DNA from: a virus | Lineage: Duplodnaviria > Caudoviricetes | Reading direction: 5' to 3' (one strand) | IMG/VR virus record: IMGVR_UViG_3300037506_000042 | Location: 1-49,166 of that record | Length of the DNA stretch: 49,166 nucleotides | In this document: in pieces, positions 2,223 to 49,166 of the stretch | Numbering within the stretch: position 1 is the stretch's first letter | Layout of the letters: each line of letters opens with the position of its first letter | Notes under the pieces: generated by a model | The model's input: only the letters and a program-made list of their open reading frames with translations | The model's database searches: none | What the model was told of the DNA's origin: nothing | Position numbers and translations under genes: made by a program

Positions 2223-2435
2223 GATTTGTTTCTCCTACGCGTTGCTAGTCAAGTTTTAACTTCCGGGCGCGCAAGGTTGCGCACTCGCTCGGCTGTTGGC
2301 GGTTTGCCGGCACTCAATGCAGCAATAAAGCATTGGGCCTCGACGCGTGTAGTGTTCGTCGGGGTGGATCGGGCCGCCGCAGTGATCGCAGATGCCGACG
2401 GGGGCAGATTTTGATCGCATTGCGGCGACCGAACT

Positions 2436-2469
2436 TTTGAAAAAGCCCGGCGCGATGTTGCGCCGGGCT
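2436..2469 (-). terminator. Intrinsic terminator for leftward genes
   Basis: AGCCCGGCGC/GCGCCGGGCT 10-bp stem followed by a T-run on the minus strand, just after the 2479 stop. Confidence 0.7.
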
Positions 2470-2478
2470 GTGGAAGAA

Positions 2479-2769
2479 TCAGATCAGACTGATCCGTCGC
2501 TCGCGTTCCTGGAGTAGGTCCAGGAAAGCTTCTCGCATGTCGAGGTCTATAGAGTAGACCTCTTCTGAAATTTTGAACAAGAGTTGTTGGAACGCATTTG
2601 TGAGGTCATGGTCCACCTCCGCGCTTCCGTCTTTGTCGACGCGCTCAATTTTCTCAGCGCGCCAGTTTAGTTGCACTTGTCGCTCGTCGTTGTAGAGCGC
2701 GTCTTCTACGATGCTCTCATACGCGCGCATTACATGCGCGTACGGGAGCCTCTCTAGATAGAGGTTCAT
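2479..2769 (-). CDS. Small acidic hypothetical early protein
   Basis: 96-aa ORF with AAGGAGAG RBS, collinear with the early operon. Confidence 0.75.
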   Translation of the reverse strand: MNLYLERLPYAHVMRAYESIVEDALYNDERQVQLNWRAEKIERVDKDGSAEVDHDLTNAFQQLLFKISEEVYSIDLDMREAFLDLLQERERRISLI

Positions 2770-2784
2770 TTTATGCTCTCCTTT

Positions 2785-3594
2785 TCATTTTACTAGGTAT
2801 TGACGAGTTCTAAATTCGTCAATCCATCGCAGCGTCATTTCCGCTATGGGTGAGGACGAGGGTGTATCGCCGGGCTCTATGGCAAGGAACCACAACTCTG
2901 CCGGACGGTTCGGGCTGGGGCTGATTCCGACCTCGTTGAGGTCGCATCCACGCACATTTGCAATGGTTCCGATCAGGGATGCGCACTCGCCTCGGTACGC
3001 ATCGCCGTCAATCCGCCCTTCGAGTAGGGCTTGGCGGAGACCGTTTATTTCGTTGGGTGCCTGTGACAGCACCCGCCATAGGTCTCTTTTGATGCCGTTC
3101 ATATTGGCATCTCCAAGATTTGCCCCGCTAAAATCGGCATTGAGTACATTCGCGCGGCCTACTTTTGCGCCTCTGAAATTGGTGTTTCGCGCGCTTGTTT
3201 CGCGCAAGTACGCGTCGGTTAGATCGACGTTGCCGAAATAGGCATCGTCGATCTTAGCGTTTCTAAGATCGACACGGTGAAAGCTTGCGTTTCCCGCCTT
3301 GATTTCACGCATATCTGTTTCTCGCAGATCTGCGCCGTCGAATTTAGCGCCCTCGACATCCGCTCCACGCATATCGACTGCGCGGAACTCAACGTTTTCC
3401 AGGTTCGCTTTGCGGAGCTTTGCTCCGCGAATGTTCTGCTCCTTCAGGGACAGCCATCGAAGGTCGGCGCAGGATAGATCTACGCCTTCTTGAATCGCCT
3501 TTACGACCGCGGCGTTGCGGTCCGGGGCTTCGATTCGGGCAATTACGTGGCCCGAGAACCGGTTTTTTATGACGTTTATCACGGAGTTAATCAC
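2785..3594 (-). CDS. Pentapeptide-repeat protein (probable start GTG at 3582)
   Basis: Tandem A(D/N)L(R/x) pentapeptides (ADLRW, AKLRK, ANLEN, ADLRE, ANLGD) plus a C-terminal globular domain. Confidence 0.9.
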   Translation of the reverse strand: MINSVINVIKNRFSGHVIARIEAPDRNAAVVKAIQEGVDLSCADLRWLSLKEQNIRGAKLRKANLENVEFRAVDMRGADVEGAKFDGADLRETDMREIKAGNASFHRVDLRNAKIDDAYFGNVDLTDAYLRETSARNTNFRGAKVGRANVLNADFSGANLGDANMNGIKRDLWRVLSQAPNEINGLRQALLEGRIDGDAYRGECASLIGTIANVRGCDLNEVGISPSPNRPAELWFLAIEPGDTPSSSPIAEMTLRWIDEFRTRQYLVK

Positions 3595-3827
3595 GTTTCA
3601 ATTGTCGAGCGCGCAAGGTTGCGCACTCGACGCCAGCCAAAATCCTAGCCGCGCGCTCGCTTGGCGCGGTATCTTCTGTTTCGCGCTCAACGCCCTCGGC
3701 GTCTGCGTAGCTGGCGTACCAGCCGCCGTCTTCGACCATGTACGTGCTCAAAGAGAGCGCGATTGCGCAGTCAGCGAGTATGTCAATAAACGCGGAGTTT
3801 GTTACCTCCATTGTTTTGCACACCCAA
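3587..3827 (-). pseudogene. Diverged 3' duplicate of gene 4569-4922
   Basis: 241-bp direct repeat of 4569-4809 (offset 982); both encode WVCKTMEVTNSAFID...EDGGWYA...ERAARILAG. Confidence 0.75.
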
Positions 3828-3858
3828 CGCCGGAGTTGGTTCAGATTGCATCCTCGAA

Positions 3859-3914
3859 CCTGGCGACCCGTCAAGGGACGTTCGCGTTGCTCATTCCCTT
3901 GACGGGTCGCCAGG
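3859..3914. repeat. Perfect 20-bp inverted repeat with 16-nt loop
   Basis: CCTGGCGACCCGTCAAGGGA (3859-3878) and TCCCTTGACGGGTCGCCAGG (3895-3914). Confidence 0.95.
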
Positions 3915-4085
3915 CTCAGGGATACACTGATCAAGTCACGGCGGCCGGTGAAAGAAATCCACAGCCACAATCCGCCGGACAACTATGACGTTTATCACTT
4001 TGATCCTTTTTTGCTGCGCCCCTAAGCGCAGCTTTTAACTGCCGAGCGCACTATTTTGTGCGCTCGGCAGTGTTTCGACCCTTAA

Positions 4086-4523
4086 TTACAGCCACTCCAT
4101 GTGGCTGTATTGAAACTTCATTGGTGGGTCGACCTTGACTTCAATTTCGTTGTCGTTAACGGTCGTGGCGACATTTGGGTTGACCGCCGCCACAATGGCG
4201 GCGGCGACTCTGGCGTCCACGTCGAATGACATGGTCCATTTCTGGACCACGCCCATCGGGCGTGGTCCAGGGACTGAGACAATAACTCCGACCTCTTGGC
4301 GATCACGCATGCGCGCGATCGCTGCGGTTGCCTGTGCCGGCAGCGCTTGAAAGACAAGCGCTGCCTCAAGTTTCTTGGCCTCTTCTAGGAGGCCGTTGAT
4401 AATTCCCACGCACTCTTCAGAGTGCGCAGGGAAGTTGACGGCCTTTTGGCCGACAACCTGGAATTCTTCTCCGACATCGGCCGCGTGGCGGCCGATGATA
4501 AACACCTTCAGTTTATCTTTCAT
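4086..4523 (-). CDS. Hypothetical early protein
   Basis: 145-aa ORF with AAGGAGAAAC RBS, flanked by hairpins at about 4038-4072 and 4547-4568. Confidence 0.8.
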   Translation of the reverse strand: MKDKLKVFIIGRHAADVGEEFQVVGQKAVNFPAHSEECVGIINGLLEEAKKLEAALVFQALPAQATAAIARMRDRQEVGVIVSVPGPRPMGVVQKWTMSFDVDARVAAAIVAAVNPNVATTVNDNEIEVKVDPPMKFQYSHMEWL

Positions 4524-4568
4524 GTTTCTCCTTGTTTTCCTTAACTACCCCCGCGTAATTGCGCGGGG

Positions 4569-4922
4569 TTAATCACGCCTTAACTGTCGAGCGTGAAGCA
4601 TCACGCACTCGATCCCAGCCAAAATCCTCGCCGCGCGCTCGGTCGGCGCGGTGTCGTTTGTCTCGTGCCTCTCGCAGTGTGCCCCTCTATAGGTGGCGTA
4701 CCAGCCACCATCCTCGACCACGAATGCTCTATCGCTGAGCGCGATTGCGCAGTCAGCGAGCATGTCAATAAACGCGGAGTTTGTTACCTCCATTGTTTTG
4801 CACACCCAAGACGTATCTTGGTTTGCAGTTGCGTTGAACTGCACACGAGTTACAATTTTTGCTGCGTTTCGATTGCCGAGCGGGGCGCCAGGACCCCGCT
4901 TAGTTTTTTTTTGACTTCTCAT
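4569..4922 (-). CDS. Hypothetical protein with basic GAPxGNxNA N-terminal motif
   Basis: MRSQKKTKRGPGAPLGNRNAAK; the C-terminal part is duplicated at 3587-3827. Confidence 0.7.
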   Translation of the reverse strand: MRSQKKTKRGPGAPLGNRNAAKIVTRVQFNATANQDTSWVCKTMEVTNSAFIDMLADCAIALSDRAFVVEDGGWYATYRGAHCERHETNDTAPTERAARILAGIECVMLHARQLRRD

Positions 4923-4925
4923 TTT

Positions 4926-5522
4926 TCACCATACGGTGATAACGTTATCGCCGTATTCAATTTTCGGTTTGCCAACTGTCTCTCGCTCGCGTTCTATAAA
5001 TTTGAACGCTTCGTACCCCGAATCGAACGGGCCTTGCACCAACTCGTCTTTCATGGCCCAAGTTCTTATGTGGAAACTTCCTCCTTCGCAAATTACGTAA
5101 ACGTGCCCCTTGGGGGCACGACCCACTGAATATTCGCTGTCCTTCTCGTGCCTATTATCAATTATCTTGCTCACCTTGTGAGCGTCATAGCTTATCTTTC
5201 GTGCATAAATGGCTTTTGCCATTTGATCACCCGTTTTTAATGCGTGTATAAAGCTTACTCCTTGTACTATTGCAGTAGTAAGCTCAACGCAAAACAGAGC
5301 AGCTGCAAACCGCGTTTCTGGGCATGTCAAGCTTTCATCTATTCCTTTTTCAAACTCTTCATATGAGAGTTTGAATGAATTACTCCAGTATTCCATACTG
5401 GGACTTTTGTACATCGGAGTAAGGCCGTACACTCGACATACTTCTGTCGAGTGTTTGCTAATCAAATGATTGTTTTTCAATGCGTAAGATGCAATGTTAT
5501 GCAGAAGCATTTCGTGTTTCAT
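4926..5522 (-). CDS. Hypothetical protein (AT-rich)
   Basis: Long ORF; ATG at 5522 has an AAGGGG RBS. Confidence 0.7.
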   Translation of the reverse strand: MKHEMLLHNIASYALKNNHLISKHSTEVCRVYGLTPMYKSPSMEYWSNSFKLSYEEFEKGIDESLTCPETRFAAALFCVELTTAIVQGVSFIHALKTGDQMAKAIYARKISYDAHKVSKIIDNRHEKDSEYSVGRAPKGHVYVICEGGSFHIRTWAMKDELVQGPFDSGYEAFKFIERERETVGKPKIEYGDNVITVW

Positions 5523-5550
5523 TTTTCCCCTTATTGAACTATACAATTAC

Positions 5551-5590
5551 GCCTACACCTGCTGCGCGAAATAATGCAGCAGGTGTAGGC
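5551..5590. terminator. 15-bp stem hairpin between early genes
   Basis: GCCTACACCTGCTGC and GCAGCAGGTGTAGGC; no clear U-tract. Confidence 0.5.
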
Positions 5591-5624
5591 TGCTTCAAAA
5601 TTCACTATGAAGCGTCTTCGCGCT

Positions 5625-5846
5625 TCATACCCCACCTTTCCAAACGCGCGCCATCCATCCTGCTTTGTAAGCAGCCATGGCAAAGTCTTTCGTCTTCTCG
5701 TCGCAATCCTCAAGTTCAAGGGAAATAATTTCCCCATGGGCTTCAATGAAGCCCCTATCGAAATAATCGTCCCAAAACACTTGCTTCTGAAAGTAATTCA
5801 TGCTTTCAATTGAAAGCACCTTTCCGCTTTTGTCTTTGTATGTCAT
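5625..5846 (-). CDS. Small early protein, paralog of 7604-7918
   Basis: MTYKDKSGKVLSIESMNY resembles MSYTDESGKVISIHEMTY; AAGGAG RBS; directly behind a consensus promoter. Confidence 0.8.
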   Translation of the reverse strand: MTYKDKSGKVLSIESMNYFQKQVFWDDYFDRGFIEAHGEIISLELEDCDEKTKDFAMAAYKAGWMARVWKGGV

Positions 5847-5883
5847 AACTGCTCCTTAAGTGAACCCTTGCTTGCTGCATTGA

Positions 5884-5911
5884 ATTATACACAAAACAAT
5901 CCAACTGTCAA
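5884..5911 (-). promoter_or_regulatory. Sigma70-type early promoter
   Basis: TTGACA-16 bp-TATAAT; lies in a ~61-bp block (5880-5941) repeated at 6490-6550. Confidence 0.85.
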
Positions 5912-5954
5912 CTACCGAAGCAAAAAATACGCATAAATGCGATGAAAATGCGCT

Positions 5955-6098
5955 TCATCTAAGACGCACGCGTTTAGCTTTGGTGCCTGGTTCATCCAGC
6001 CAGAGAAAATAGAACTTGCGCGGCCGAGCGAATTCCGCTGCGTTTCGATTGCCGAGCGGGGCTCCAGGACCGCTCGGCTTTTTGACTTTCCGACTCAC
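5955..6098 (-). CDS. 47-aa chimeric ORF (GAPLGNRNAA motif fused to an MTase-derived fragment)
   Basis: Manual translation MSRKVKKPSGPGAPLGNRNAAEFARPRKFYFLWLDEPGTKAKRVRLR; halves resemble 4861-4895 and 1768-1833. Confidence 0.5.
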   Translation of the reverse strand: MSRKVKKPSGPGAPLGNRNAAEFARPRKFYFLWLDEPGTKAKRVRLR

Positions 6099-6099
6099 A

Positions 6100-6486
6100 C
6101 TATTCTTCCCCCCTCTTAAATGCTGTTACAAGCCTTGTTGGGCGGAACATGTCGCCATCGCCAGCATCTGCCTGGTCGATGTAAACGCCCTCCCAAATTG
6201 TGACCAGATCGCCACCGCCGTAGCCAACGTGGAAGCCCTCGCGGAGGGCTTCGCGGCACTCGGCTTCGTCGTTATACATTCCAAATCCGCACAATCCAGC
6301 GTTGGCCAAGCGCCAGCGCCCATCCGAGCAGCGCACCGGCTCGCCTTTCAGGTCGAGGTCCTTTTTTGTCTCGACCGCCTCTCTTTTCGAGGCGAAGTCC
6401 ATATACAACACGTAGCTGCGCTTGTCGCGCAAGTCGCGTTTAAGTTGAGCTTCGTTTGCAACAAATCGGATAAAGTAGCTGGTCAC
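6100..6486 (-). CDS. Hypothetical early protein, probably leaderless GTG start
   Basis: In-frame part of ORF 6100-6675; GTG lies 7 nt after the -10 box. Confidence 0.65.
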   Translation of the reverse strand: MTSYFIRFVANEAQLKRDLRDKRSYVLYMDFASKREAVETKKDLDLKGEPVRCSDGRWRLANAGLCGFGMYNDEAECREALREGFHVGYGGGDLVTIWEGVYIDQADAGDGDMFRPTRLVTAFKRGEE

Positions 6487-6493
6487 AAATTGA

Positions 6494-6521
6494 ATTATAC
6501 ACAAAACAATCCAACTGTCAA
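6494..6521 (-). promoter_or_regulatory. Sigma70-type early promoter, second copy
   Basis: TTGACA-16-TATAAT, identical to 5884-5911. Confidence 0.85.
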
Positions 6522-6650
6522 CTACCGAAGCAAAAATACGCATAAATGCGTAGATGCGTATAGATGAGCGGTGCAAAGATACCGCTCGCGTCGCAGCGTC
6601 GTAGCGTGTCGTAGAACACCAAAACGTTATCACTTCTGATAATGATATTA

Positions 6651-6857
6651 TCAGAAGTAGTTTTTGTTTTCGCACGCAGCTGCCGCTTTGCCCCCTTTGT
6701 CAAACTTTGCGCCGTGCAGATCTGCACCTCGCAGATCTGCACAACGAAAATCAGCTAATTCAGCAACAGCAATTTCAACCGCAGTCTTCATGCTGTCTGC
6801 GTATGTTTCAAAAATAACAGCTCCGGTACACTTGTTACGAATTGTGACCTTCACCAT
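6651..6857 (-). CDS. Short or truncated pentapeptide-repeat protein
   Basis: MVKVTIRNKCTGAVIFE...ADFRCADLRGADLHGAKF; N-terminus resembles 2785-3594; GGAG RBS. Confidence 0.7.
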   Translation of the reverse strand: MVKVTIRNKCTGAVIFETYADSMKTAVEIAVAELADFRCADLRGADLHGAKFDKGGKAAAACENKNYF

Positions 6858-6927
6858 TTGTAAAACTTGCTCCGTTTTTCTTCCTTGACTGGAAGACTGC
6901 AATTCCAATGCGCCAATGACGTTCGGG

Positions 6928-6956
6928 TTGCGGCTCTAAGACGATATGGCTATAAT
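6928..6956 (+). promoter_or_regulatory. Putative CRISPR-array promoter
   Basis: TTGCGG-17 bp-TATAAT, 130 bp upstream of the first repeat and pointing into the array. Confidence 0.65.
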
Positions 6957-7086
6957 CTGGGGGTTGAGCCCTTTCGTGGGGATTCGACTCCGCCGGAATT
7001 GCCTTGATGTGAGAGTTAGGCGCAATTCCGGCGAAATCGTTTTCCCTACGGCTGTTGCTGAACTTGAACAGGAATTCCAACAGGAA

Positions 7087-7632
7087 GCGTTGGCTCAATC
7101 GATCCGGTGGCGGATACTGAAACCGCTGCGCACCCAACTGAACATGTCACAGGAAGTGCGGCGTTGGCTCAATCGATCCGGTGGCGGATACTGAAACATG
7201 CCGCAATCGCTGACGACACGATCAAACGCGACCGCGTTGGCTCAATCGATCCGGTGGCGGATACTGAAACTGCGCAGCGTCAATGCGCGCCTGAGCACAA
7301 TTCGAAGCGTTGGCTCAATCGATCCGGTGGCGGATACTGAAACGCGCGTCGGCGGCTGGTCTGGCTGGCGACTACAGGCGTTGGCTCAATCGATCCGGTG
7401 GCGGATACTGAAACAACACACGATTTTGTTGACCTTTACAAAATCGGTCGGCGTTGGCTCAATCGATCCGGTGGCGGATACTGAAACTCATAGTTGAAAC
7501 TTCTAGTAATAAACGAAACGCCGCGTTGGCTCAATCGATCCGGTGGCGGATACTGAAACGAAATTGGATGTCGGGTTTGCTCATGCTCACACCGTGCGTT
7601 GGCTCAATCGATCCGGTGGCGGATACTGAAAC
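7087..7632 (+). CRISPR. cas-less CRISPR mini-array: 8 identical 37-bp repeats, 7 spacers of 34-37 bp
   Basis: GCGTTGGCTCAATCGATCCGGTGGCGGATACTGAAAC at 7087, 7161, 7234, 7307, 7378, 7451, 7523, 7596; internal ATCCG-GTGG-CGGAT hairpin and ACTGAAAC 3' end typical of Cas6-processed class 1 repeats. Confidence 0.98.
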
Positions 7633-7918
7633 TTGCTTCGTCAAGAGACTCGCACCATTCTTGCCATCCCCTTGAGTATTCCTCACTTGCTGCATTTATG
7701 GTATCTTCATCTGCTTCTTCGAACATATCCGAATCGTCGATGTTTTGTTTGATTCGCTCTAAGCTTGGAAGAATTCCGTCAAATAGTTCCCCAAGATTTT
7801 TATTATCGTCCGCATCTTGAAAGCCAAAGCTTCGAAAATGCTCGCGAAACTCACGTTCTTGCACATACGTCATTTCATGAATTGAAATGACTTTCCCGCT
7901 TTCGTCTGTGTAGCTCAT
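7604..7918 (-). CDS. Small acidic early protein whose stop codon lies inside the last CRISPR repeat
   Basis: AAGGAGAA RBS, own promoter, D/E-rich (DDSDMFEEADED), paralog of 5625-5846. Confidence 0.8.
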   Translation of the reverse strand: MSYTDESGKVISIHEMTYVQEREFREHFRSFGFQDADDNKNLGELFDGILPSLERIKQNIDDSDMFEEADEDTINAASEEYSRGWQEWCESLDEASFSIRHRID

Positions 7919-7947
7919 AGTTCTCCTTGAAATTAACCTTGAATTGA

Positions 7948-7975
7948 ATTGTATGCAAAACAATCATTCTGTCAA
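7948..7975 (-). promoter_or_regulatory. Sigma70-type early promoter, third diverged copy
   Basis: GGTAG-TTGACA-16-TACAAT-TCAA, same flanks as the other two copies. Confidence 0.8.
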
Positions 7976-8138
7976 CTACCAGTGACCAAAATCAGACTAA
8001 ATACGTAGACGGCATGCGTGCGATAATGCCATCTGTGGCGTATCCGGCATCGTCGGCGCGGGTTAATCAACGTCCGCAAGTCGCCACAAAGCGCCGAACG
8101 CAAGCAGCGCGCGCAAAACCGCTACGCTGTCTGATTCG

Positions 8139-8327
8139 TCAAGAACGAGCTTGCGCCGCGCAAGTTCGTCGATGCGTTTGCTCCTGCGGCGCTTGGTCTT
8201 GGCTGTCATTCGATGCTATTCCCACAGCGCGCGCTGCATGTTGCGCTCGACTGACAAGCCGATGTATGCAGCAATGCACGCTGTTATCAGCCAGCGGTAT
8301 GCGCATCGCATTTGCGTTAACGATCAT
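8139..8327 (-). pseudogene. N-terminal remnant of a DNA methyltransferase
   Basis: MIVNANAMRIPLADNSVHCCI resembles the MTase start that normally continues into TSPPY; similarity stops there. Confidence 0.5.
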
Positions 8328-8380
8328 TTCTTGATGTGCATCTGTGTGTCCGATAAGGGGAAGTTATCGGACAACTAGAC

Positions 8381-8417
8381 GCGTTGGCTCAATCGATCCG
8401 GTGGCGGATACTGAAAC
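8381..8417 (+). CRISPR. Solitary perfect CRISPR repeat
   Basis: 37/37 identical to the array repeat, 748 bp after the last array repeat; preceded by a TGTCCGATAA/TTATCGGACA hairpin (8347-8373). Confidence 0.95.
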
Positions 8418-8603
8418 GGCACGCACGGTGAATCCGTAGGCGCAAGTACGTATCCCGGCATGATCGTTGGGCGCGGTTGTTCCGGCGGCTTGGGCGTCAG
8501 CAACGTCGATGTGATTGGCGAGAGTAGCGGCGCAACAGCGCGGCGGTCCTTGTCATACCAGCGCATACGCTGCGCGTTAAGGGGAGGCACGCAGCGCAAA
8601 TAC

Positions 8604-9350
8604 CTATGCTGGCTCTCCGGGGGCCTCTTTCGCCGCGGCGATTGCGATCTGCAACGCCGATTTCGCCGCGGTGCGCTCAGCCTGCGTGCTGCTGCCGTTC
8701 TTGCGTAGCACCTCGCGGGCCAGCGCCTGCGCGATGCTAATCTCCGTGGCAACCTCCACGGTCGCGTCGCGCGCAAGTTCACCAGCGGCCTTGCCGAGGG
8801 CGATCATTTCTGCCTTCCACTCGGAATCACGCGAGTGAAAAGCCTGGGCGTTTCCGCGTGCAACCGGTGTCAGTTCGCTGAACGGCTGCGCGTCACTGAT
8901 CGTTTCTACCTCGGTCTCATCCAGCATTCCCAGACCGCAAATACTCAGTGTTACGCGCCGCTTGGCTTTAGTTACCGCTTTCATGATGGCGTTGGCGACG
9001 TTGCCCTGCATGTCCCCGCGCTTCACCACGCCGACATCAGAATCTCCGCGCCCGGTTTTGTCGCGCGCCTCAATCGTGACAATGATGAGGTCGTCCTGAA
9101 ATTGGATGTCGGGTTTGCTCATGCTCACACCGTGAATGTTGCGCAACTGGTCTGTGCAATCCTTGCGCGCATACAGCGTGAGTTTGCCGTTTAGCCAAAT
9201 GTAGTCAAAAGGCTTTGTCATCGGGTTAAGGCCAAGTGATTCGCACGTACGCAGGTAATACGCCGCGCGCTCCTCGGATGACAGTTTGCCCAGGTCGCCC
9301 ATTATTAGCACCTGCTGCATGATTTCGCTCTTTGACAATTCGTTTCCCAC
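8604..9350 (-). CDS. Single-strand annealing recombinase (RecT/Red-beta-like)
   Basis: CESLGLNPMTKPFDYI...MKAVTKAKRRVTLSICGLGMLDETE pattern; GTG start with AGGAG RBS (ORF track starts at 9377). Confidence 0.7.
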   Translation of the reverse strand: MGNELSKSEIMQQVLIMGDLGKLSSEERAAYYLRTCESLGLNPMTKPFDYIWLNGKLTLYARKDCTDQLRNIHGVSMSKPDIQFQDDLIIVTIEARDKTGRGDSDVGVVKRGDMQGNVANAIMKAVTKAKRRVTLSICGLGMLDETEVETISDAQPFSELTPVARGNAQAFHSRDSEWKAEMIALGKAAGELARDATVEVATEISIAQALAREVLRKNGSSTQAERTAAKSALQIAIAAAKEAPGEPA

Positions 9351-9458
9351 GTCTTGTTTCTCCTGTGTTTTGTCCAATTCGCCGCAAGCGCCGCGCGTAG
9401 AGACTCATCAGCCTCTATAAACGCGCGCTTCGCATCAAGCTACATATCTAGAAACAAC

Positions 9459-9731
9459 TTATAAAATACAAACCACCACAAACGCGATAAGCGCAAATCC
9501 AAATAGCGCGACAAGAAAGCGCATATGCTTGTTCCCGCGCTTTCGCGCGGGAACCTGACGCCACCCCAACATCTTCTGTTGCTGAATGCCGAGCGCGCGA
9601 ATTCTTTCCGCGCGCTCCTCTCTAACTATTTGCGACAATGCTGCTTGTGCCAGCATCAACGAGAACTGAACCTGTGCTTGGCTTTCGCTCTCGCCCACAT
9701 ATTCCCCGCCCCCGTGCTTAAGCATTTGCAT
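9459..9731 (-). CDS. Small membrane-anchored protein
   Basis: GGAGG RBS; hydrophobic C-terminus FLVALFGFALIAFVVVCIL. Confidence 0.65.
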   Translation of the reverse strand: MQMLKHGGGEYVGESESQAQVQFSLMLAQAALSQIVREERAERIRALGIQQQKMLGWRQVPARKRGNKHMRFLVALFGFALIAFVVVCIL

Positions 9732-10473
9732 TTCCTCCGTGCTGCGCCTGGCGCTCAGTGAGCGCCCAGGCGGACTCTCGCTTAGCCTGCCACTCTGCGT
9801 ACTCAGCAACACACTGAGTACTCAAACTATCAATTAACTCGCGTATTCGCAATGAATAATTAATATCGTTCGCATAAACACTAGGTGCGTGTCTCCGAGT
9901 GACCACGGCATCGAGTTGCGAAACAATCGATTTTGCTGCATGTTCGCCCTCGACGGTCAAAAACCGTTTGCGCTTTACGGGCGAGTAAGACAGGTAGCCC
10001 GGGCCGGCTGTTCTGTCATACTTACAAGTTTCCATATCGTAAGCCAAGCCCCAAACAAAAGCCCCGTTGTCCCCTACTGGGAAGCTTGAGGATACGATTT
10101 CTGGAACACTTATGCGCACGCTGTTTTCAATTAGGTATGCCATCAAAATCGCCTTTTGCGCTGTGCTAATTTTTGCACACGCACGGCGATCAATAATAAA
10201 TCCGTGCCTTGTACTGGTAGCGACCTGAATTAGATCGGGAATATCTAATACTGTAATACGCCTTATCAAACAATTTGCCGCGTCTTCCGGATCTGAGATA
10301 TACGCGATGATTTCGCCTGACAAATAACCATCGTGTATGGAAACCTCCTGGCCGCCTCGAATATCGCGCCAGTCGTCATACGACATTTCCGCGACGATTT
10401 TTTTTTCCGCCGCTGCGCGCTCCCACGCAGAAGCTGCGTTTTCAGACAACACTTTGTAATACCCCTTTTTCAT
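9718..10473 (-). CDS. Hypothetical protein
   Basis: 251-aa ORF collinear with neighbours. Confidence 0.7.
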   Translation of the reverse strand: MKKGYYKVLSENAASAWERAAAEKKIVAEMSYDDWRDIRGGQEVSIHDGYLSGEIIAYISDPEDAANCLIRRITVLDIPDLIQVATSTRHGFIIDRRACAKISTAQKAILMAYLIENSVRISVPEIVSSSFPVGDNGAFVWGLAYDMETCKYDRTAGPGYLSYSPVKRKRFLTVEGEHAAKSIVSQLDAVVTRRHAPSVYANDINYSLRIRELIDSLSTQCVAEYAEWQAKRESAWALTERQAQHGGNANA

Positions 10474-10494
10474 ATTTACCGCGCTTGCAACATG

Positions 10495-10851
10495 TTACCG
10501 CTTGTTCTGCTCAACAAACTTAATTAGTGACGAACAAAACGCGATTTGCGCGCTTTCTTCGTCAAAACCAACATAGTCTCCGCCTACATGCAATCCTTGA
10601 TTGCAGTAAGCCTTCACAAAATCAAAAGCAACGCGATCCGATACGTGTCCAGCTTCGTTACCGCGTCCAAGCGCACGCCGCACGTATTTCAACGCGCCTT
10701 CGCAAGGATTTACAACATTGAAATCCTTGCCACCAACGCTACACAAAATCGACCTACCGCCTCCATATTTTTCGTATATCATTAGCCTTGCCATACGCGC
10801 GTCGCATTCGTCGCTTAACACGCGACGATGAAACCTTTTTACCGCATTCAT
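10495..10851 (-). CDS. Hypothetical protein, first gene of the leftward operon
   Basis: 118-aa ORF starting 20 bp behind the leftward promoter. Confidence 0.65.
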   Translation of the reverse strand: MNAVKRFHRRVLSDECDARMARLMIYEKYGGGRSILCSVGGKDFNVVNPCEGALKYVRRALGRGNEAGHVSDRVAFDFVKAYCNQGLHVGGDYVGFDEESAQIAFCSSLIKFVEQNKR

Positions 10852-10870
10852 ATTTTGCGATTGAAGATAC

Positions 10871-10944
10871 AGTATATTTTGTTTTTGTCATCTGTCAATA
10901 CGCAATTTTTCGTATCTTGACACGCACTCTCGATTGCATACAAT
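10871..10944. promoter_or_regulatory. Back-to-back divergent promoters
   Basis: Minus strand TTGACA(10898-10893)-16-TATACT(10876-10871); plus strand TTGACA(10917-10922)-16-TACAAT(10939-10944); marks the switch in gene orientation. Confidence 0.85.
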
Positions 10945-10952
10945 GCGCACGC

Positions 10953-11201
10953 ATGAGAAAAAAATCAGCAGTTGCACAAATTGCGCGAAACGCAATCAAA
11001 AATCGCCAAAACGAACATCACAAAACGCGACCACATAACATCTCTTTTGTGGTCCCTACCGGGAATCTGCGTGAGCTGTATCACCAGCTACTAGATAACG
11101 GTATGAAGCCTGTCGAAATCGGAATTTACGCATTTCGACTTCTCTATGACGAGGTGTGCCGTAGAGACTCTTCAGAAAATGAGCAAGATACGAGCGAATA
11201 G
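10953..11201 (+). CDS. Small basic protein in the Cro-like position, possible regulator
   Basis: ATG 8 nt after the -10 box; MRKKSAVAQIARN; regulator role inferred from position only. Confidence 0.55.
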   Translation: MRKKSAVAQIARNAIKNRQNEHHKTRPHNISFVVPTGNLRELYHQLLDNGMKPVEIGIYAFRLLYDEVCRRDSSENEQDTSE

Positions 11202-11444
11202 AGCGCGTCTTTGCTACCGTGCGCGTGTGACTATTGAATACGTCGTTTTCGATTACGTCATCACGTGACGCGCAGTGAACCTAAAACAGAATACCGCACA
11301 TTGTACTAACAGTAACAACGTTCAACATAGCATGAAAACCAAAGAGACTACTACAAGTGCAGTTTCATCTACTGCACGCAGATTGTGTGTTGTTCAGCAT
11401 CGCATCTGCTTTCGCGTAAGAAATGCAGATTTGGCGGTGCAGAA

Positions 11445-12491
11445 ATGAATCGCGTAAACGTTCCTAACACTTTCCAGAAACCTAACTGGTTTACAGATGA
11501 GCTAAATTACCTGCTCACTGGCAATGAAGTAAAAGTGTTAGATCACGTATGTAGACATATTTTAGGCTGGTCAAGCAGCATTGAGTCGCGAAGTGCGCGA
11601 ATCAGCCTAGCGCACGTTTGCGAAGGTTTTACAACCGAATCAGGAAAAAGGTTTTACGGTACAGGTTTAAGCGAAGCTACCGCACGTGCAACGTTGCGTT
11701 CGTTAGTATTGTTTGGAGTGTTAAAGGTGATAGCGCCAAACGATCCTAGAAAAAACACTGGCGCACTGTACTGCATACCTGATGCAGTAGATGAAAAATG
11801 CATCGACGCGTTGTGGCAAAGGAGAAACAAGACAAAAAGTGATGCAAAATCAAAATCCGAAAAAGGATTAGCAGCTGCTAACCAAAAGCTGACTAAAGCA
11901 CATGCGAAGCTCACACCCTCCTTGCGTGCGACGCAACCACCCCCCTTGCGTGCGACGCAAGGAGATGAAAAGTTAGAGGTGGTTGCGTGCGACGCAACCA
12001 CCTCCCTTGCGTGCGACGCAACCACCCCCCTTGCGTCGCACGCAACACAAGAAACCAATATTAAACCTACAGTAAAACCAAGTACAGATATTGCGCGCAA
12101 AGCGCGCAGTAATTCTGAGCAAACAGTTACGCTACCCAAAACGTACGGTAGTTTGTTTGTCGCAATAGCGGAAGTGTGCATGCTTGACACAAGTGCACCA
12201 GCGTCGAAAAGAAGCATTTCCGAAGCTGCAAAGTTTTTGTGCGTTAAGCCTGGTATTAGCGTTGAACATGTTACAAGGTTTGGTGAATGGTACAAACAAA
12301 CCGAGTATCGCGGCAAACTAGGTTACCCGCCTACGCCGTCAAATGTTCAAAGTTTGTGGCGACGGTTTGCTGAGTCGGAGAATTCACCTAGCGCAGTGAA
12401 AAACTCAAAATCTGGCGCAGTGCGTACAAACGGTGAATTCATGAAAGAAATGATTTCAGTAGTGAGAGCAGGCAGCACGCACGAGGAGTAA
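11445..12491 (+). CDS. Phage replication initiator (lambda O-like organisation)
   Basis: N-terminal winged-helix-like segment (LTGNEVKVLDHVCRHILGW; GTGLSEATARATLRSLV) and internal iterons. Confidence 0.8.
   Translation: MNRVNVPNTFQKPNWFTDELNYLLTGNEVKVLDHVCRHILGWSSSIESRSARISLAHVCEGFTTESGKRFYGTGLSEATARATLRSLVLFGVLKVIAPNDPRKNTGALYCIPDAVDEKCIDALWQRRNKTKSDAKSKSEKGLAAANQKLTKAHAKLTPSLRATQPPPLRATQGDEKLEVVACDATTSLACDATTPLASHATQETNIKPTVKPSTDIARKARSNSEQTVTLPKTYGSLFVAIAEVCMLDTSAPASKRSISEAAKFLCVKPGISVEHVTRFGEWYKQTEYRGKLGYPPTPSNVQSLWRRFAESENSPSAVKNSKSGAVRTNGEFMKEMISVVRAGSTHEE
11922..12045. repeat. Origin iterons
   Basis: TTGCGTGCGACGCAA at 11922, 11946, 11983 and 12007, plus an inverted copy at 12031. 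Confidence 0.85.
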
Positions 12492-12493
12492 CA

Positions 12494-13069
12494 ATGCGAA
12501 CGATTCAAACGATCCAAACAAGCAAAAATCAGCTAGCCAATTCTTCAATAGCAATCAGTCGAGAGATTGCAGAAGTGGCACTTGTGATTGCTCAACTGCG
12601 CCCAGGTTGGATTTTGCAACCTTACGATGTTCAGAATTGGACTTTGCTACTTAGTGCGTACGATAAAGAAATACTGCACTTTGCCGCGCTTGAGTTCTGC
12701 AGGCAAAGAACATCGGAGAGTGTAAGCGCGGAAAACATTTCACAGTTTGCAGGTTATATAAAGCGCGCGATTGCGTCTTATAACACTTACACAAGAATAC
12801 ATCACGAGAACAAAGACAACTTTGCAATTTCGTTTGCAAGCGGATGCGGCGAAGATACACAAAATTTTATAAAAACCTACACGCGTGCATCAAAATCGCA
12901 TGAAAATGACAAGCACGATGACGATGACGATGACGACTACAATGACTTTTTGTTGCAAGCAATAGAAAAGTCAAGAATAAGACTTGAAAATGAAAGAAAT
13001 GCCGGTAATGAACAATCTTATAAATATTGGAGATCCTACATTGATTTTTGCGAAAGGAGAAAGCAGTGA
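12494..13069 (+). CDS. Hypothetical protein, possible helicase loader or loader inhibitor
   Basis: Directly follows the initiator; GAGGAG RBS; poly-Asp tract; function inferred from position. Confidence 0.55.
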   Translation: MRTIQTIQTSKNQLANSSIAISREIAEVALVIAQLRPGWILQPYDVQNWTLLLSAYDKEILHFAALEFCRQRTSESVSAENISQFAGYIKRAIASYNTYTRIHHENKDNFAISFASGCGEDTQNFIKTYTRASKSHENDKHDDDDDDDYNDFLLQAIEKSRIRLENERNAGNEQSYKYWRSYIDFCERRKQ

Positions 13070-13266
13070 TTGTTATTGTTATTGCTGTTGTTCGATTCGG
13101 CGCGATCGTGAAGATTGAATCAAAAAGCGGCTGGGAGATAAAAATGCATTCATCAATTGAGCGTGCGGTTGCTGAGGTAAGGGAGCGCTTTCCTCATGGA
13201 ACACGCGTTACGCTGCGAAAGCTGTTACCAGATTGTTATTGGTGTCAAGAAGTTGTAACGTTGTGA
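13066..13266 (+). CDS. Small hypothetical protein
   Basis: GTGA overlap with the previous stop; AAGGAG RBS. Confidence 0.55.
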   Translation: MIVIVIAVVRFGAIVKIESKSGWEIKMHSSIERAVAEVRERFPHGTRVTLRKLLPDCYWCQEVVTL

Positions 13267-13316
13267 AGCATTCATCTGTTCAACGCGACACATTGTCAAA
13301 AACATAGAGCCAAATT

Positions 13317-13691
13317 TTGGAAAAAATACGATTCGGCGCTTTGCCTTGGCCAGAACAAGTTTTGTGGACAAACGCAAAAAAAAAGGCGCACTGGTTAAGA
13401 GTTTCTGTAGCGTCGAGAAACGCGCGTGCACACGCTAGATTGCTTTCTGTGTCGTGCTGTTCATCAAGAAAAGCTGATGCAAAAATCATGCGTGCGCTTT
13501 GCATCACTGCGCATCCTGCTACACGCAGAAAGTATGACATAGCAAATTTGCTTGAAGCTTGTAAAAGCTACATCGACGGCTTGTGCGACGGTCTAGAAAT
13601 CGATGACTCGCAGTTTGTGCAAGTGACCGTGAAAAGAGGAGAGAAGCACAGATACGGAATCGTGCTAATAGATATGGAATCGCTAGAGTGA
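13317..13691 (+). CDS. rusA: RusA-like Holliday junction resolvase
   Basis: LPWP...N start and RRKYDIANLLEACKSYIDGLCDGLEIDDSQF (D-x-x-N...K...D...DD pattern). Confidence 0.75.
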   Translation: MEKIRFGALPWPEQVLWTNAKKKAHWLRVSVASRNARAHARLLSVSCCSSRKADAKIMRALCITAHPATRRKYDIANLLEACKSYIDGLCDGLEIDDSQFVQVTVKRGEKHRYGIVLIDMESLE

Positions 13692-13767
13692 CAAAAGCTG
13701 TAAAGCATGCTTTAAGATGCCAAGCATGCTAAGATTTTGCGCTAGATGTGTTCAAAAGGAGTAAAAC

Positions 13768-14469
13768 ATGAGCGATAAACGAGGATTAGTTCTTACCGTT
13801 TCGGCAATGGCTGTTGCAGCGCCGCGTTACGCAGGTGCAATGGCTCAAGCCGCCGGTTACGCGCTTGACGGTTTGATTTGGTTCTGGATCGAAACGGTTT
13901 CAGGTCTTGGATTCGCAATGCTTGAAGCAGTCGTTATAGCGCTAGCAGCGCGTGCGTGGAGTGACGCACCTGAAGGAAAAACACGTAACGCTTTAGGTGT
14001 TTTGATTGTTACGACTTTTGCTTTGCTAGCTTTGATGGTCACTCCATACATTCGTGCTACTGTGTCACGCGTTACTGTTCCTGATGTGCTCGACAGCGTG
14101 ACGCTGTGGCTGTGGTCCCTTTCCGTTGGCGTGTCGCCATTGTTTTTGATGGCAACATCAGGCGTAACGGATCACACAAACAAGCGTAACGGCACACGTA
14201 ACGCGGCGCGTAACGTTGCTTTGCGAGCGCGTGACGCTACAGTGTCTGAAAGTTACGTTATTAGCAAAGCGTCGCGTAACACGCTAAAATCAGGTGACGC
14301 AAACGACGCAAAGCAAGAACTACAAAAAGCATTTGATGTTTCCGCGTCGCAGGTTGTCGCAGGGACAGAAAAACTGCAAGAAAATATTTCACCTGCTGCA
14401 AGACGTCAAAGAGAGTATAGAGCTCGACTGCGAGCAAAATTGCATAACAAAAGTCAGCACATAGACTAA
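13768..14469 (+). CDS. Multi-pass membrane protein with basic C-terminal tail
   Basis: About four hydrophobic segments; AAGGAG RBS. Confidence 0.75.
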   Translation: MSDKRGLVLTVSAMAVAAPRYAGAMAQAAGYALDGLIWFWIETVSGLGFAMLEAVVIALAARAWSDAPEGKTRNALGVLIVTTFALLALMVTPYIRATVSRVTVPDVLDSVTLWLWSLSVGVSPLFLMATSGVTDHTNKRNGTRNAARNVALRARDATVSESYVISKASRNTLKSGDANDAKQELQKAFDVSASQVVAGTEKLQENISPAARRQREYRARLRAKLHNKSQHID

Positions 14470-14482
14470 AGTGTAAACGTTT

Positions 14483-14923
14483 ATGTTACGCGTTATTTCA
14501 TTTTTTGCAGTGCTTGTAGTGTTTTCAGCTACTGCAAGCGCGCAAAGCAGCGCGCCAGGTTCTGACGAAGCAACTGCTATAGTAAGCGAAGCAAAAGCAA
14601 CTGCCGGAGCTCGACTTACTGAGCTTGCGCCAACATCAACTATAACGAGAACCGAAACGCCGATGCCGACCGCGACTGCAACTGCGACTGCGTCTGTAAC
14701 GCCAACTCCAGAATCAACAGCTACGCTTACACCAAGCAAAACACCAATTATCTTTCAATCCACGACTCCGGAACCAACTAAAATAGTTGCTAAAGAAACT
14801 CAAAGCGCTATTGGATTGTCTAATGAACGTTCATTTGTTATAACAATCGTGTTCTTTTGTTCGTTTGTCGTTCTAACTGCTGTGTCTTGGCTAGTCTTGT
14901 TTTTGATACGGAGGTTGTCATGA
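14483..14923 (+). CDS. Exported Pro/Thr-rich protein with C-terminal membrane anchor
   Basis: Signal peptide, TETPMPTATATATASVTPTP linker, C-terminal TM helix. Confidence 0.75.
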   Translation: MLRVISFFAVLVVFSATASAQSSAPGSDEATAIVSEAKATAGARLTELAPTSTITRTETPMPTATATATASVTPTPESTATLTPSKTPIIFQSTTPEPTKIVAKETQSAIGLSNERSFVITIVFFCSFVVLTAVSWLVLFLIRRLS

Positions 14924-15630
14924 GTCGAACAATCAAAAACTTTGCGCCCATGTCTTCTCCTGCAACTGCAAAGGAAGACATGCTACGCGCGATTGTAATT
15001 GCAGTGATTTTCGGTTTAATGGCTTTTTTGATCGCTCTTGTTGGTTGCGGTATAGGTGTTGCTTTTCTTGATATAAACATGGTTTATATCGCGCTTTGTG
15101 TTTCGCTTGTTTGGATGTTTTTTGGCGGTTTGATCGCTGCATATACTGTCATTGCGCCGCTTTCTCAAAACATGGCTGAAACACGGGAAGACAACAAAAT
15201 GATTCGCGATGCATCGCGCGATGAGCGCGAAGCGCTAAGAATAGAGCTTGAAGCACGAAAATACGATGCACAAGCAAAAGCAGCTTCGGCTGTGACAATG
15301 GCTTACAGGCCGATTGTTACTAATGTGCCAGTTTGCAGCAACTCAGAAACAACGCGCGCGGAAGTGGCGTTGTTTGAAGAAGAAAGTGTTATACCTGAAA
15401 TGGTTAACGTTGCAGGCGTCGGAGATGTAAACGTTCGTTTATTGTTTGACGCTGCCGACCGCTGGCCTGTTTCTAGAGAGTCTTTGCGCGATTCTGGTAT
15501 CAAGTTTCGCAACACAGAATATGGTGCAGTAAAAAAAGTGTTTGATGATTGCAATACGTATATGGATGCTCAGCGCAAAGCGCTACAAGTTACCAGACAA
15601 TTGTACCTAGGATTCCCCTACCCTGGGTGA
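14920..15630 (+). CDS. Membrane protein (two TM helices plus soluble domain)
   Basis: GGAGG RBS, ATGA overlap with the upstream stop. Confidence 0.75.
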   Translation: MSRTIKNFAPMSSPATAKEDMLRAIVIAVIFGLMAFLIALVGCGIGVAFLDINMVYIALCVSLVWMFFGGLIAAYTVIAPLSQNMAETREDNKMIRDASRDEREALRIELEARKYDAQAKAASAVTMAYRPIVTNVPVCSNSETTRAEVALFEEESVIPEMVNVAGVGDVNVRLLFDAADRWPVSRESLRDSGIKFRNTEYGAVKKVFDDCNTYMDAQRKALQVTRQLYLGFPYPG

Positions 15631-15716
15631 AATTGTGAAAAATTTGTCTGGAACTGCCTGGGAACCGCTAGGGAACCGCAAAAAATCGTTCCCGGAACTT
15701 GGAACCTTTTTAGTTT

Positions 15717-15753
15717 GTTTCAGTATCCGCCACCGGATCGATTTAGCCAACGC
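15717..15753 (-). CRISPR. Solitary CRISPR repeat (36/37)
   Basis: GTTTCAGTATCCGCCACCGGATCGATTTAGCCAACGC, reverse complement of the array repeat with one mismatch at 15744. Confidence 0.95.
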
Positions 15754-15782
15754 CCGCGCGTGTTGGCCCGCAGGAGTTGGGC

Positions 15783-15925
15783 CGCAGGCGTTGGCCCGCG
15801 AGGTGCTACGCAAGAACGGCAGCAGCTCTCAGACTGAGCGCACCGAGGCGAAATCGGCGTTGCAGGCCGCAATCGCCGCGGCGAAAGAGGCCCCCGGAGA
15901 GCCAGCATAGGTATTTGCGCTGCGT
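15783..15925 (+). pseudogene. Inverted 143-bp copy of the 3' end of the recombinase gene (8589-8731)
   Basis: About 7 mismatches; both encode QALAREVLRKNGSS...AAAKEAPGEPA*. Confidence 0.9.
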
Positions 15926-16016
15926 ATGCATCGCGCGCCGTGCGCGCTGCTTGCACGGGTTGCTCGCGGCAAGCAGAAAGCACCTGCATCTATATATGTA
16001 GCGCTACGGAGATTTT

Positions 16017-16490
16017 ATGTTGTCAAGCGACTTGGCCGACCGCGTATTCAGTGGCGAGTTTCACAACGAATCGGACTGCGAAAAGTTGCACGGACTGATT
16101 ACGGAGATGGCGAGCTGGATCAGTGATGCGCAAACTCACATGGCCGACATTGAAAGTGCGCCGCATGCGATCTACTTGCAGGTCCGCGGCGAAAATGTCG
16201 CACTGCTGGGTGTTGACGGACCAGTAGATTGGAACGATAGCGAAGTGACTTGGTGCACGGTTCGCGTTTTTGATTCTGACGTTCAGTATGTCAAGGCGTC
16301 GGTGCTCAAAGAGCAGGCGGCCGAAGTCGCCAGACTAAACCGCGCGCTCGACATCTGCCTGAAAGAGTTGTTGGCAATCTCGCGGCTCGATAACCAGTCG
16401 GACACTTGGGATCTGTATCACGCAGCCAAGCAGGGTCCGATCATCGCGCGCCGTGCGATTGCCGCCCAGGCGGAGGCACGCACCGCATGA
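16017..16490 (+). CDS. Hypothetical protein carried between two CRISPR repeats
   Basis: 157-aa ORF with GGAG RBS; C-terminal helical region. Confidence 0.75.
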   Translation: MLSSDLADRVFSGEFHNESDCEKLHGLITEMASWISDAQTHMADIESAPHAIYLQVRGENVALLGVDGPVDWNDSEVTWCTVRVFDSDVQYVKASVLKEQAAEVARLNRALDICLKELLAISRLDNQSDTWDLYHAAKQGPIIARRAIAAQAEARTA

Positions 16491-16646
16491 TCCGCCTCGT
16501 GCTGTTAGTTCTGGCCGCGCTAACACTCACTACGCCCGTCAACCGAGACGCCACAGCCGACAGCGATCGTGATCTCCATCGCGCCAACAAAAACACCCAT
16601 GCCGACATCGACACAGACCAGCACGCCAACTCCTGCGGGATGCTAA
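16487..16646 (+). pseudogene. Frameshifted exported Pro/Thr-rich protein
   Basis: MIRLVLLVLAALTL signal in one frame; RPSTETPQPTAIVISIAPTKTPMPTSTQTSTPTPAGC* in another. Confidence 0.55.
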
Positions 16647-16652
16647 TCTGCA

Positions 16653-16689
16653 GTTTCAGTATCCGCCACCGGATCAATTGAGCCAACGC
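16653..16689 (-). CRISPR. Solitary CRISPR repeat (36/37) next to an AT-rich leader-like region
   Basis: GTTTCAGTATCCGCCACCGGATCAATTGAGCCAACGC, one mismatch at 16676. Confidence 0.95.
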
Positions 16690-16823
16690 TTTTTAGTTTT
16701 AGCGTAAATTCTCCAATGACGACCGGAAAAAATAGCACTGGCGCCATATTTTCCCCAAATGTAATTGCACGCTAAAACAAAATTGCGTTGTGATGACATA
16801 TTTTTGATTTTTGCATTTATAAT

Positions 16824-49008: not shown

Positions 49009-49166
49009 TCACGGTACAAGCTCAAGAGTCTGTTGCCCGCATTTGCACTCTTCAAATGCCAGACGCTTTTCGGCTTCCTTCAGGTAGTCAGCATCAATCT
49101 CGAAGCCAATAAAGTTGACGCCCAGTCCGGCGCAGGCGAGCGCGGTATTGCCCAGCCCCATAAATG
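49009..49166 (-). CDS. Alternative 3' end of the DNA methyltransferase (partial, enters from the right edge)
   Basis: ...YLKEAEKRLAFEECKCGQQTLELVP* here, versus ...YLKEAETRLASVSGTR* at 1146. Confidence 0.8.
   Translation of the reverse strand, partial: FMGLGNTALACAGLGVNFIGFEIDADYLKEAEKRLAFEECKCGQQTLELVP

What the first reader, a model, noticed from the sequence alone, without database searches (positions are those of the whole stretch)
15707..16699. Gene cassette bounded by CRISPR repeats and flanked by a target-site-like duplication
Seen: two co-oriented repeats (15717-15753 and 16653-16689) enclose 899 bp rather than ~36 bp. The cargo holds a recombinase 3' fragment, an intact 157-aa gene and a broken Pro/Thr gene. 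The unit is flanked exactly by TTTTTAGTTT (15707-15716 and 16690-16699). Inference: the repeat-cargo-repeat unit looks like an inserted element, either a gene-sized 'giant spacer' or a cassette using CRISPR repeats as recombination sites. I know no described system with this layout. A 10-bp T-rich match could be chance, but it abuts both repeats precisely.
Basis: partly seen in the sequence, partly recalled or inferred. Interest (0 to 1): 0.85.

Follow-up and report, generated by a model that had tools for sequence, protein, structure and literature searches.

The report
CRISPR spacer split by its target
Two CRISPR repeats in a bacterial virus really do enclose 899 bases, but the ends of that stretch look like one ordinary 36-base guide against a related virus, likely split open by DNA from that same target, so the guide likely served as a landing pad for gene capture.

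Summary
The layout is real: repeats, 899-bp cargo and 10-bp flanking duplication are as described, and contigs of the probable source run span each junction without a difference. The contig is a temperate tailed phage, probably of Chloroflexota. The cargo is not one clean giant spacer. Read in crRNA direction, its first 28 bases match the phage's own Rad52/Red-beta-type recombinase gene (23/28) directly behind a CCA PAM, the CCN motif that also flanks all four self-matching spacers of a second array at 7.1-7.6 kb. Its last 9 bases complete a 36-base spacer (29/36; random controls reached 22-26). The remaining 863 bp start inside that same protospacer of a related phage, inverted, with scrambled microhomology junctions. 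Best reading (0.6): a one-spacer viral mini-array whose spacer was split by DNA of the phage it targeted. No transposase, integrase, empty site, excised form or second example was found, so a dedicated mobile cassette is unsupported. The origin of the 10-bp duplication stays open. This scan noted kilobase 'giant spacers' before on other DNA, none with this sequence. All 11 repeats lie antisense to phage transcription, which leaves an anti-crRNA role open.

The parts
15707..15716 (+). left copy of the 10-bp duplication; also the T-tract of a weak terminator-like hairpin at 15688-15705
15717..15753 (-). CRISPR repeat, second in crRNA direction, 1 mismatch outside the stem and the 3' handle
15754..15762 (-). 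likely last 9 nt of the split spacer (7/9 to 8711-8719); ambiguous, also 7/9 as a sense copy
15753..15794 (+). three imperfect head-to-tail 14-nt copies of protospacer sequence; the middle one (15767-15780) is an exact inverted copy of 16626-16639
15783..15925 (+). 3' end and stop of a relative's recombinase gene, 95% identical to 8589-8731, starting at position 16 of the protospacer
16017..16490 (+). intact 157-aa ORF, no family; one close relative (P0002, 64%)
16487..16646 (+). frameshifted ORF with a hydrophobic N-terminus and Pro/Thr-rich body; its stop lies inside the spacer remnant
16625..16652 (-). first 28 nt of the split spacer, 23/28 to 8719-8746 behind PAM CCA
16653..16689 (-). CRISPR repeat, first in crRNA direction, 1 mismatch
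16690..16699 (+). right copy of the 10-bp duplication
8604..9377 (-). phage single-strand annealing recombinase (Rad52/Red-beta/RecT/Erf-like predicted fold); holds the near-cognate protospacer 8711-8746 and PAM 8747-8749
7053..7632 (+). leaderless array: 8 perfect repeats, 7 spacers plus a cut first spacer; 4 of these 8 match the phage itself next to CCN
8381..8417 (+). solitary perfect repeat, 748 bp from the array, no flanking duplication

Best explanation
The unit is likely a one-spacer viral CRISPR mini-array (repeat, 36-nt spacer, repeat) whose spacer was likely split by about 863 bp of DNA from the related phage that it targeted. Shown: the cargo's first 28 nt and last 9 nt, read in crRNA direction, match one 36-nt site of the phage recombinase gene directly behind a CCN PAM, and the inserted DNA begins inside that same site, in the opposite orientation, behind three imperfect 14-nt copies. 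Inferred steps: (1) a repeat or repeat-spacer-repeat piece from a Chloroflexota type I array entered the phage just after a terminator, leaving the 10-bp duplication (enzyme unknown); (2) the spacer came from a relative's recombinase allele through host Cas1-Cas2-Cas4; (3) in a co-infected cell, donor DNA opened or paired at the protospacer was annealed to the spacer, probably by the phage's own Rad52-like recombinase, and rejoined through microhomology in the Pro/Thr gene; (4) the piece ended up flipped, by template switching at the time or by later inversion at the 14-bp inverted repeat, which puts its genes in line with local transcription. The result is likely a dead guide plus one captured intact gene, not a mobile element.
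For: PAM: CCA, CCG, CCT at the exact register for three array spacers, CCT for the cut one if it lost 3 nt, and CCA for the split spacer; CC occupies 4.3% of positions. Best split of the cargo ends gives 29/36 at length 36, the modal spacer length of this repeat family (575 of 1548); 58 random 899-bp segments reached 22-26. The 28-nt piece alone gives 23/28; 0 of 500 shuffles reached 22, 5 of 1461 random windows reached 23 or more. The spacer reads in frame as a coding variant of the recombinase. Donor homology starts at protospacer position 16. crRNA direction is fixed by cas operons and leaders in GTDB relatives. Recombinase fold: top PDB hits RAD52 and Red-beta, E 0.01-0.05; viral models named Bet, RecT, Erf at E 2e-5 to 7e-4. 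Known parts: mini-arrays target related viruses (PMC6858448, PMC11656645 passages), spacers recombine with their phage targets (PMC8616872 passage citing Varble 2019), Rad52-like recombinases tolerate divergence (PMC3945230 abstract).
Against: The 9-nt tail fits equally well (7/9) as a sense slip-copy, and its last 4 nt equal the bases beside a repeat in a 530-bp, depth-5.6 contig that may be a host leader. Plain homologous recombination would give the donor in the spacer's orientation, not inverted. The donor had 143 bp of 95% homology at the native gene yet landed at the spacer. No intact mini-array, empty site or donor genome was found. No promoter-like site on the crRNA strand upstream of the unit. 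The model does not explain the 10-bp duplication. One instance only.
Confidence: 0.6

Rival explanations
1. Host Cas1-Cas2 integrated a 899-bp phage fragment as a true giant spacer at a solitary repeat, and its middle was later inverted at the 14-bp inverted repeat.
For: The cargo starts exactly behind a PAM; both boundaries are base-exact at the repeats; flipping the middle would make the recombinase homology run on from the PAM end. A repeat pair of this family encloses 1361 bp in L146/L147. Earlier scan notes report kilobase spacers elsewhere (unchecked).
Against: As assembled the cargo is not collinear. The model needs a chance 14/14 inverted match (only these 2 copies within 1 mismatch in the window) plus a 14-nt tandem duplication. 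No cas1/cas2 among the ORFs scanned.
Confidence: 0.15
2. The two repeats came in separately (as with the solitary repeat at 8381 and the array end at 7632, which enclose 748 bp of native-looking DNA), and the 10-bp match is slippage or chance.
For: 7633-8380 is a second long gap made of early-region phage DNA with its own promoter and no split-spacer signal (best 24/36). The repeats carry different single mutations. A 34-nt stretch outside the right repeat has CCG in PAM position (about 1 in 4 by chance).
Against: The 10-bp match is rare even among T-rich sites (144 of 176,377); the cargo's GC differs from both flanks; both cargo ends point to the same protospacer.
Confidence: 0.1
3. Assembly isomer: 8731-15783 is inverted between the two 143-bp copies, so the two repeats do not enclose this cargo on real molecules.
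For: No single Logan contig bridges the unit; three contigs end in the shared 35-bp stretch; a 58-bp identical run also exists. The perfect repeat has depth 398.6 against about 145 expected from nine phage copies, so other repeat holders are in the sample.
Against: Each cassette repeat shares at most 29 exact bases with any other repeat, below the 31-base word of these contigs; each junction is spanned at phage depth; the direct 10-bp duplication and the two spacer ends only make sense in the assembled form.
Confidence: 0.07
4. A dedicated mobile gene cassette that uses CRISPR repeats as recombination sites and makes 10-bp target duplications.
For: Base-exact 10-bp duplication and direct repeats at both ends.
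Against: No transposase or integrase among the ORFs scanned; no skip joint in the contigs; exact repeat absent from IMG/VR, JGI and GTDB scans and from 401 Chloroflexota genomes at 3 mismatches; 2 of 3 cargo genes are broken. The one viral locus with two spaced motifs (L215) has half-repeats inside longer duplicated gene ends.
Confidence: 0.05

Closest known systems
Viral CRISPR mini-arrays (SPV1/SPV2, PMC6858448; review PMC11656645)
   Same: One spacer between host-type repeats in an intergenic site of a virus, no cas genes seen, spacer aimed at a related virus and mismatched to the carrier.
   Different: Here the spacer is broken by 863 bp that start at its own target; there is a 10-bp flanking duplication; no leader or promoter was found on the crRNA strand.
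Spacer-protospacer recombination between phages and CRISPR loci (Varble 2019 and Watson 2018, as cited in PMC8616872; primary papers not read)
   Same: A spacer acts as the homology that joins phage DNA to a CRISPR array.
   Different: There CRISPR loci move into transducing particles; here target DNA moved into a phage-borne spacer and is inverted.
Streptococcus phage AP1.1 integrating into repeats and carrying off spacer-repeat units (bioRxiv 2020.10.09.333658)
   Same: A temperate phage ends up holding host repeat-spacer units; a possible route for the 7053-7632 array.
   Different: No integrase found; the junction between host-like DNA and the circular form lies in a methyltransferase gene (1168/49057), not in a repeat; type I, not II-A.
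Mosaic formation by Rad52-like phage recombinases (PMC3945230)
   Same: Temperate phage with a Rad52-like recombinase; exchanged piece bordered by short, diverged homology.
   Different: The landing homology is a CRISPR spacer, and the junctions are scrambled and inverted.
Solitary repeat units / RNA anti-CRISPRs (PMC10651486 listing; PMC11656645, PMC8616872 passages)
   Same: Phage-borne single repeat (8381-8417).
   Different: Those are transcribed as crRNA mimics; all repeats here lie antisense to the neighbouring genes and promoters.

Membership tests
viral CRISPR mini-array | 1-2 spacers of normal length between repeats | tested here: inconclusive
   899 bp as it stands; 36 nt when the two ends are put together, tail ambiguous
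viral CRISPR mini-array | repeat like that of the host's CRISPR-Cas | tested here: inconclusive
   belongs to a 37-bp family found mostly in Chloroflexota beside type I-A/I-B-like, I-D and III-B genes; exact host repeat not found
viral CRISPR mini-array | spacer targets a related virus, not the carrier | tested here: met
   7 mismatches to the carrier's own gene including positions 1 and 3, PAM intact, in-frame variant; the exact target genome was not found
viral CRISPR mini-array | no cas genes on the virus | tested here: met
   none among 27 ORFs scanned with Pfam and 21 with PHROGs; not every ORF was scanned
viral CRISPR mini-array | leader or promoter driving crRNA | tested here: not met
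   no promoter-like site on the minus strand upstream of 16689; flank not visibly like relatives' leaders. Leaderless phage mini-arrays are reported (PMC6858448 passage)
viral CRISPR mini-array | crRNA made and active | not testable with these tools
   only one DNA run holds the stretch
Cas1-Cas2 (giant) spacer | insert starts next to the PAM | tested here: met
   CCA at the exact register
Cas1-Cas2 (giant) spacer | insert is one collinear donor piece | tested here: not met
   homology stops after 28 nt and resumes inverted at the other end
IS / transposon | target-site duplication | tested here: met
   10 bp, base-exact
IS / transposon | terminal inverted repeats and a transposase | tested here: not met
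   ends are direct repeats; the 14-bp inverted repeat lies 13 nt inside each CRISPR repeat; no transposase family hit
AP1.1-type phage using a repeat as attP | integration junction in a repeat, with an integrase | tested here: not met
   junction lies in the methyltransferase gene; no integrase among the ORFs scanned
Rad52-like phage recombinase (gene 8604-9377) | Rad52/Red-beta fold | tested here: met
   model pLDDT 88; Foldseek hits; no Pfam, PHROG, NCBIfam or relevant PDB sequence hit; annealing activity untested

The most novel reading that the evidence does not exclude
This phage lineage collects its host's anti-phage CRISPR pieces and turns them to its own use: parked antisense under early promoters they yield RNA that neutralises the matching crRNAs (the 7053-7632 array holds two perfect, PAM-flanked guides against the phage itself), and phage-borne spacers act as programmable landing pads that capture genes from the rival phage that CRISPR has just cut.
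Probability: 0.13. Interest if true: 0.85.

Novelty: new variant of a known kind. Interest (0 to 1): 0.5.

Why it matters
If right, it is a natural fossil of CRISPR targeting steering gene flow between phages: a guide against a rival became the entry point for the rival's DNA. It also warns that a 'giant spacer' between exact repeats can be an ordinary spacer with an insert, which can be tested by joining the two ends and looking for a PAM. The same genome carries perfect self-targeting guides in antisense, which makes an antisense anti-CRISPR idea testable. The limit is that this is one genome with no relatives in hand.

Full report
Context. The window is a whole 49,166-bp contig with terminase, portal, major capsid and tape-measure genes. 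Bases 1168-1276 recur at 49058-49166, and a Logan contig joins 1168 to the sequence before 49058, so a circular form exists; bases 1-1099 hold a host-like NHL-repeat gene. I read it as a temperate tailed phage. The repeat belongs to a 37-bp family found mostly in Chloroflexota genomes (the scan stopped at 125 of about 590 stretches), next to type I-A/I-B-like, I-D and III-B genes in the 5 loci whose proteins I scanned. The host itself was not identified.

Observation. Confirmed as given. The 10-bp duplication is beyond chance: 5 of about 299,500 random pairs, 144 of 176,377 T-rich pairs. Each junction is spanned by contigs of run X1 with no differences at phage depth; no joint skipping the unit or one repeat was listed. 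X1 is the only holder found and may be the source. The two contigs meet only in a 35-bp stretch shared with the native recombinase gene, so the link between the halves rests on the original assembly and on the duplication itself.

Direction and PAM. In four GTDB loci the cas operon points at the end of the array that begins GTT/GCT and the repeats end in ACTGAAAC/G, so crRNA runs on the minus strand in the unit and on the plus strand at 7087-8417. The window has a second array, 7053-7632, with 8 perfect repeats and a ninth solitary one at 8381. Four of its eight spacer-position sequences match the phage itself: 35/35 at 23036, 36/36 at 9098, 34/36 at 28874 and 34 exact bases at 42560. Their 5' flanks are CCG, CCT, CCA, and CCT if the cut first spacer lost 3 nt. 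CCN is the PAM reported for type I-A (PMC6546366 passage) and YCN for one type I-B (PMC8990532 passages).

The cargo ends. The first 28 nt after the right repeat match 8719-8746 of the phage's own recombinase gene at 23/28, directly behind CCA. Testing every split of the two cargo ends at lengths 34-37 gave a best of 29/36, split after nt 27-29, at that site; 58 random 899-bp segments reached 22-26. Thirty-six is the modal spacer length of the family (575 of 1548), and the joined sequence reads in frame as a variant of the recombinase. The tail is weaker evidence: 7/9 either as spacer end or as a sense copy, and its last 4 nt equal those beside a repeat in a 530-bp contig of depth 5.6 that may be a host leader. 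Between the two ends lie about 863 bp. They start with imperfect 14-nt tandem copies, one an exact inverted copy of spacer nt 14-27, then run into a 143-bp, 95% copy of the recombinase 3' end beginning at protospacer position 16, then the 157-aa gene and the Pro/Thr frame, whose stop lies in the spacer remnant. The insert thus begins inside the very site that the interrupted spacer targets, in the opposite orientation.

The recombinase. No profile library names it. Its model (pLDDT 88) finds RAD52, Red-beta and Mgm101 first in the PDB, weakly (E 0.01-0.1), and Bet, RecT and Erf models among viral proteins at E 2e-5 to 7e-4; one Atlas cluster carries Rad52_Rad22 on 20% of members.

Mechanism. 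Shown: anatomy, PAM register, donor start inside the protospacer, fold of the recombinase. Inferred: a mini-array against a relative, then capture of that relative's DNA at the spacer by annealing and microhomology, then or at once a flip. Whether CRISPR cleavage supplied the donor end is open: the surviving piece is the PAM-distal arm, but Cas3 is described as unidirectional in some types and bidirectional in I-A, I-C and I-D (PMC10256805 passages). Loss of the guide may have been favoured as the carrier's own allele is a near match with an intact PAM; this is speculation. The 10-bp duplication is unexplained; it sits at a weak terminator-like tail.

Results against. No intact mini-array, empty site, donor genome or second case was found. 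Simple homologous recombination predicts the other orientation. The second long gap, 7633-8380, shows no split-spacer signal, so long gaps here arise by more than one route. In 1630 adjacent repeat pairs of fetched loci, 6 rows exceeded 150 bp, one gene-sized case being L146/L147 (same contig, 1361 bp), so true long inserts occur in this family.

Orientation. All 11 repeats lie antisense to the neighbouring genes and to the near-consensus promoters at 7975, 6521 and 5911. That is only two or three independent events. Solitary half-repeats in fetched genomes lean the same way (downstream gene in 21 of 23, upstream in 19 of 28 scored; many from related Ktedonobacteraceae). The plain reading is avoidance of Cas6 cutting and self-targeting; the bold one is antisense neutralisation of crRNA.

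Literature seen. Passages of PMC6858448, PMC11656645, PMC8616872, PMC8990532, PMC6546366, PMC10256805 and bioRxiv 2023.03.03.530964; abstract and section 10 of bioRxiv 2020.10.09.333658; abstract of PMC3945230; listing only for PMC10651486 and PMC11837452. Varble 2019 is known to me only through the review's sentence. Nine searches listed no paper whose title or abstract start describes a phage spacer split by DNA of its own target or a natural antisense array; the library lacks most subscription papers, and supplementary tables of viral mini-arrays (bioRxiv 2023.03.03.530964, Table S10) were not seen.

Verdict. Real, and best filed as a new variant of a known kind: a viral mini-array broken by its cognate target. 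Interest 0.5: an unusual, mechanistically telling fossil, but a single case with no sign of a dedicated system.

Noticed in passing
window 7053-7632: Leaderless 8-repeat array with perfect repeats; 4 of 8 spacer-position sequences match this phage next to CCN, two perfectly. It would be self-destructive if expressed as crRNA; it lies antisense, downstream of the promoter at 7975-7948. Its joins to phage DNA were not confirmed by Logan contigs.
   Followed up: partly
window 7633-8380: Second long gap between repeats (748 bp), made of early-region DNA; the 119-aa gene 7604-7963 now ends inside the repeat. One Logan contig of depth 15.3 covers 7603-8410.
   Followed up: partly
window 6980-7060 and 8335-8380: Strong hairpins (z -5.1 and -4.9, the latter folded with the repeat) sit where a leader would be, at the 3' end of any antisense transcript.
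   Followed up: partly
window 8589-8731 and 15783-15925: The captured piece creates a 143-bp, 95% inverted repeat around the 7-kb replication and control region, which could now be flipped by recombination.
   Followed up: no
window 2200-8000: Early region built of repeated promoter-headed cassettes (5879, 6489, 7943; 3582/4564; 4861/6037), suggesting modular shuffling by short homologies.
   Followed up: no
window 1168-1276 and 49058-49166: Host-like DNA joins the phage inside a DNA methyltransferase gene; the circular form gives the protein another C-terminus. No integrase seen.
   Followed up: partly
L147 780-2214 (Anaerolineae MAG DAOTYD010000105.1): Two repeats of the same family enclose 1361 bp with a 169-aa ORF, in a locally duplicated array end.
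   Followed up: partly
L215 2535-3127 and many Ktedonobacteraceae loci (e.g. L084, L090, L097, L141, L143): Solitary half-repeats placed just after gene ends, mostly antisense to crRNA direction, like REP-type elements.
   Followed up: partly
window 15635-15705: Five spaced GGAAC motifs just left of the insertion site; possible protein-binding site.
   Followed up: no
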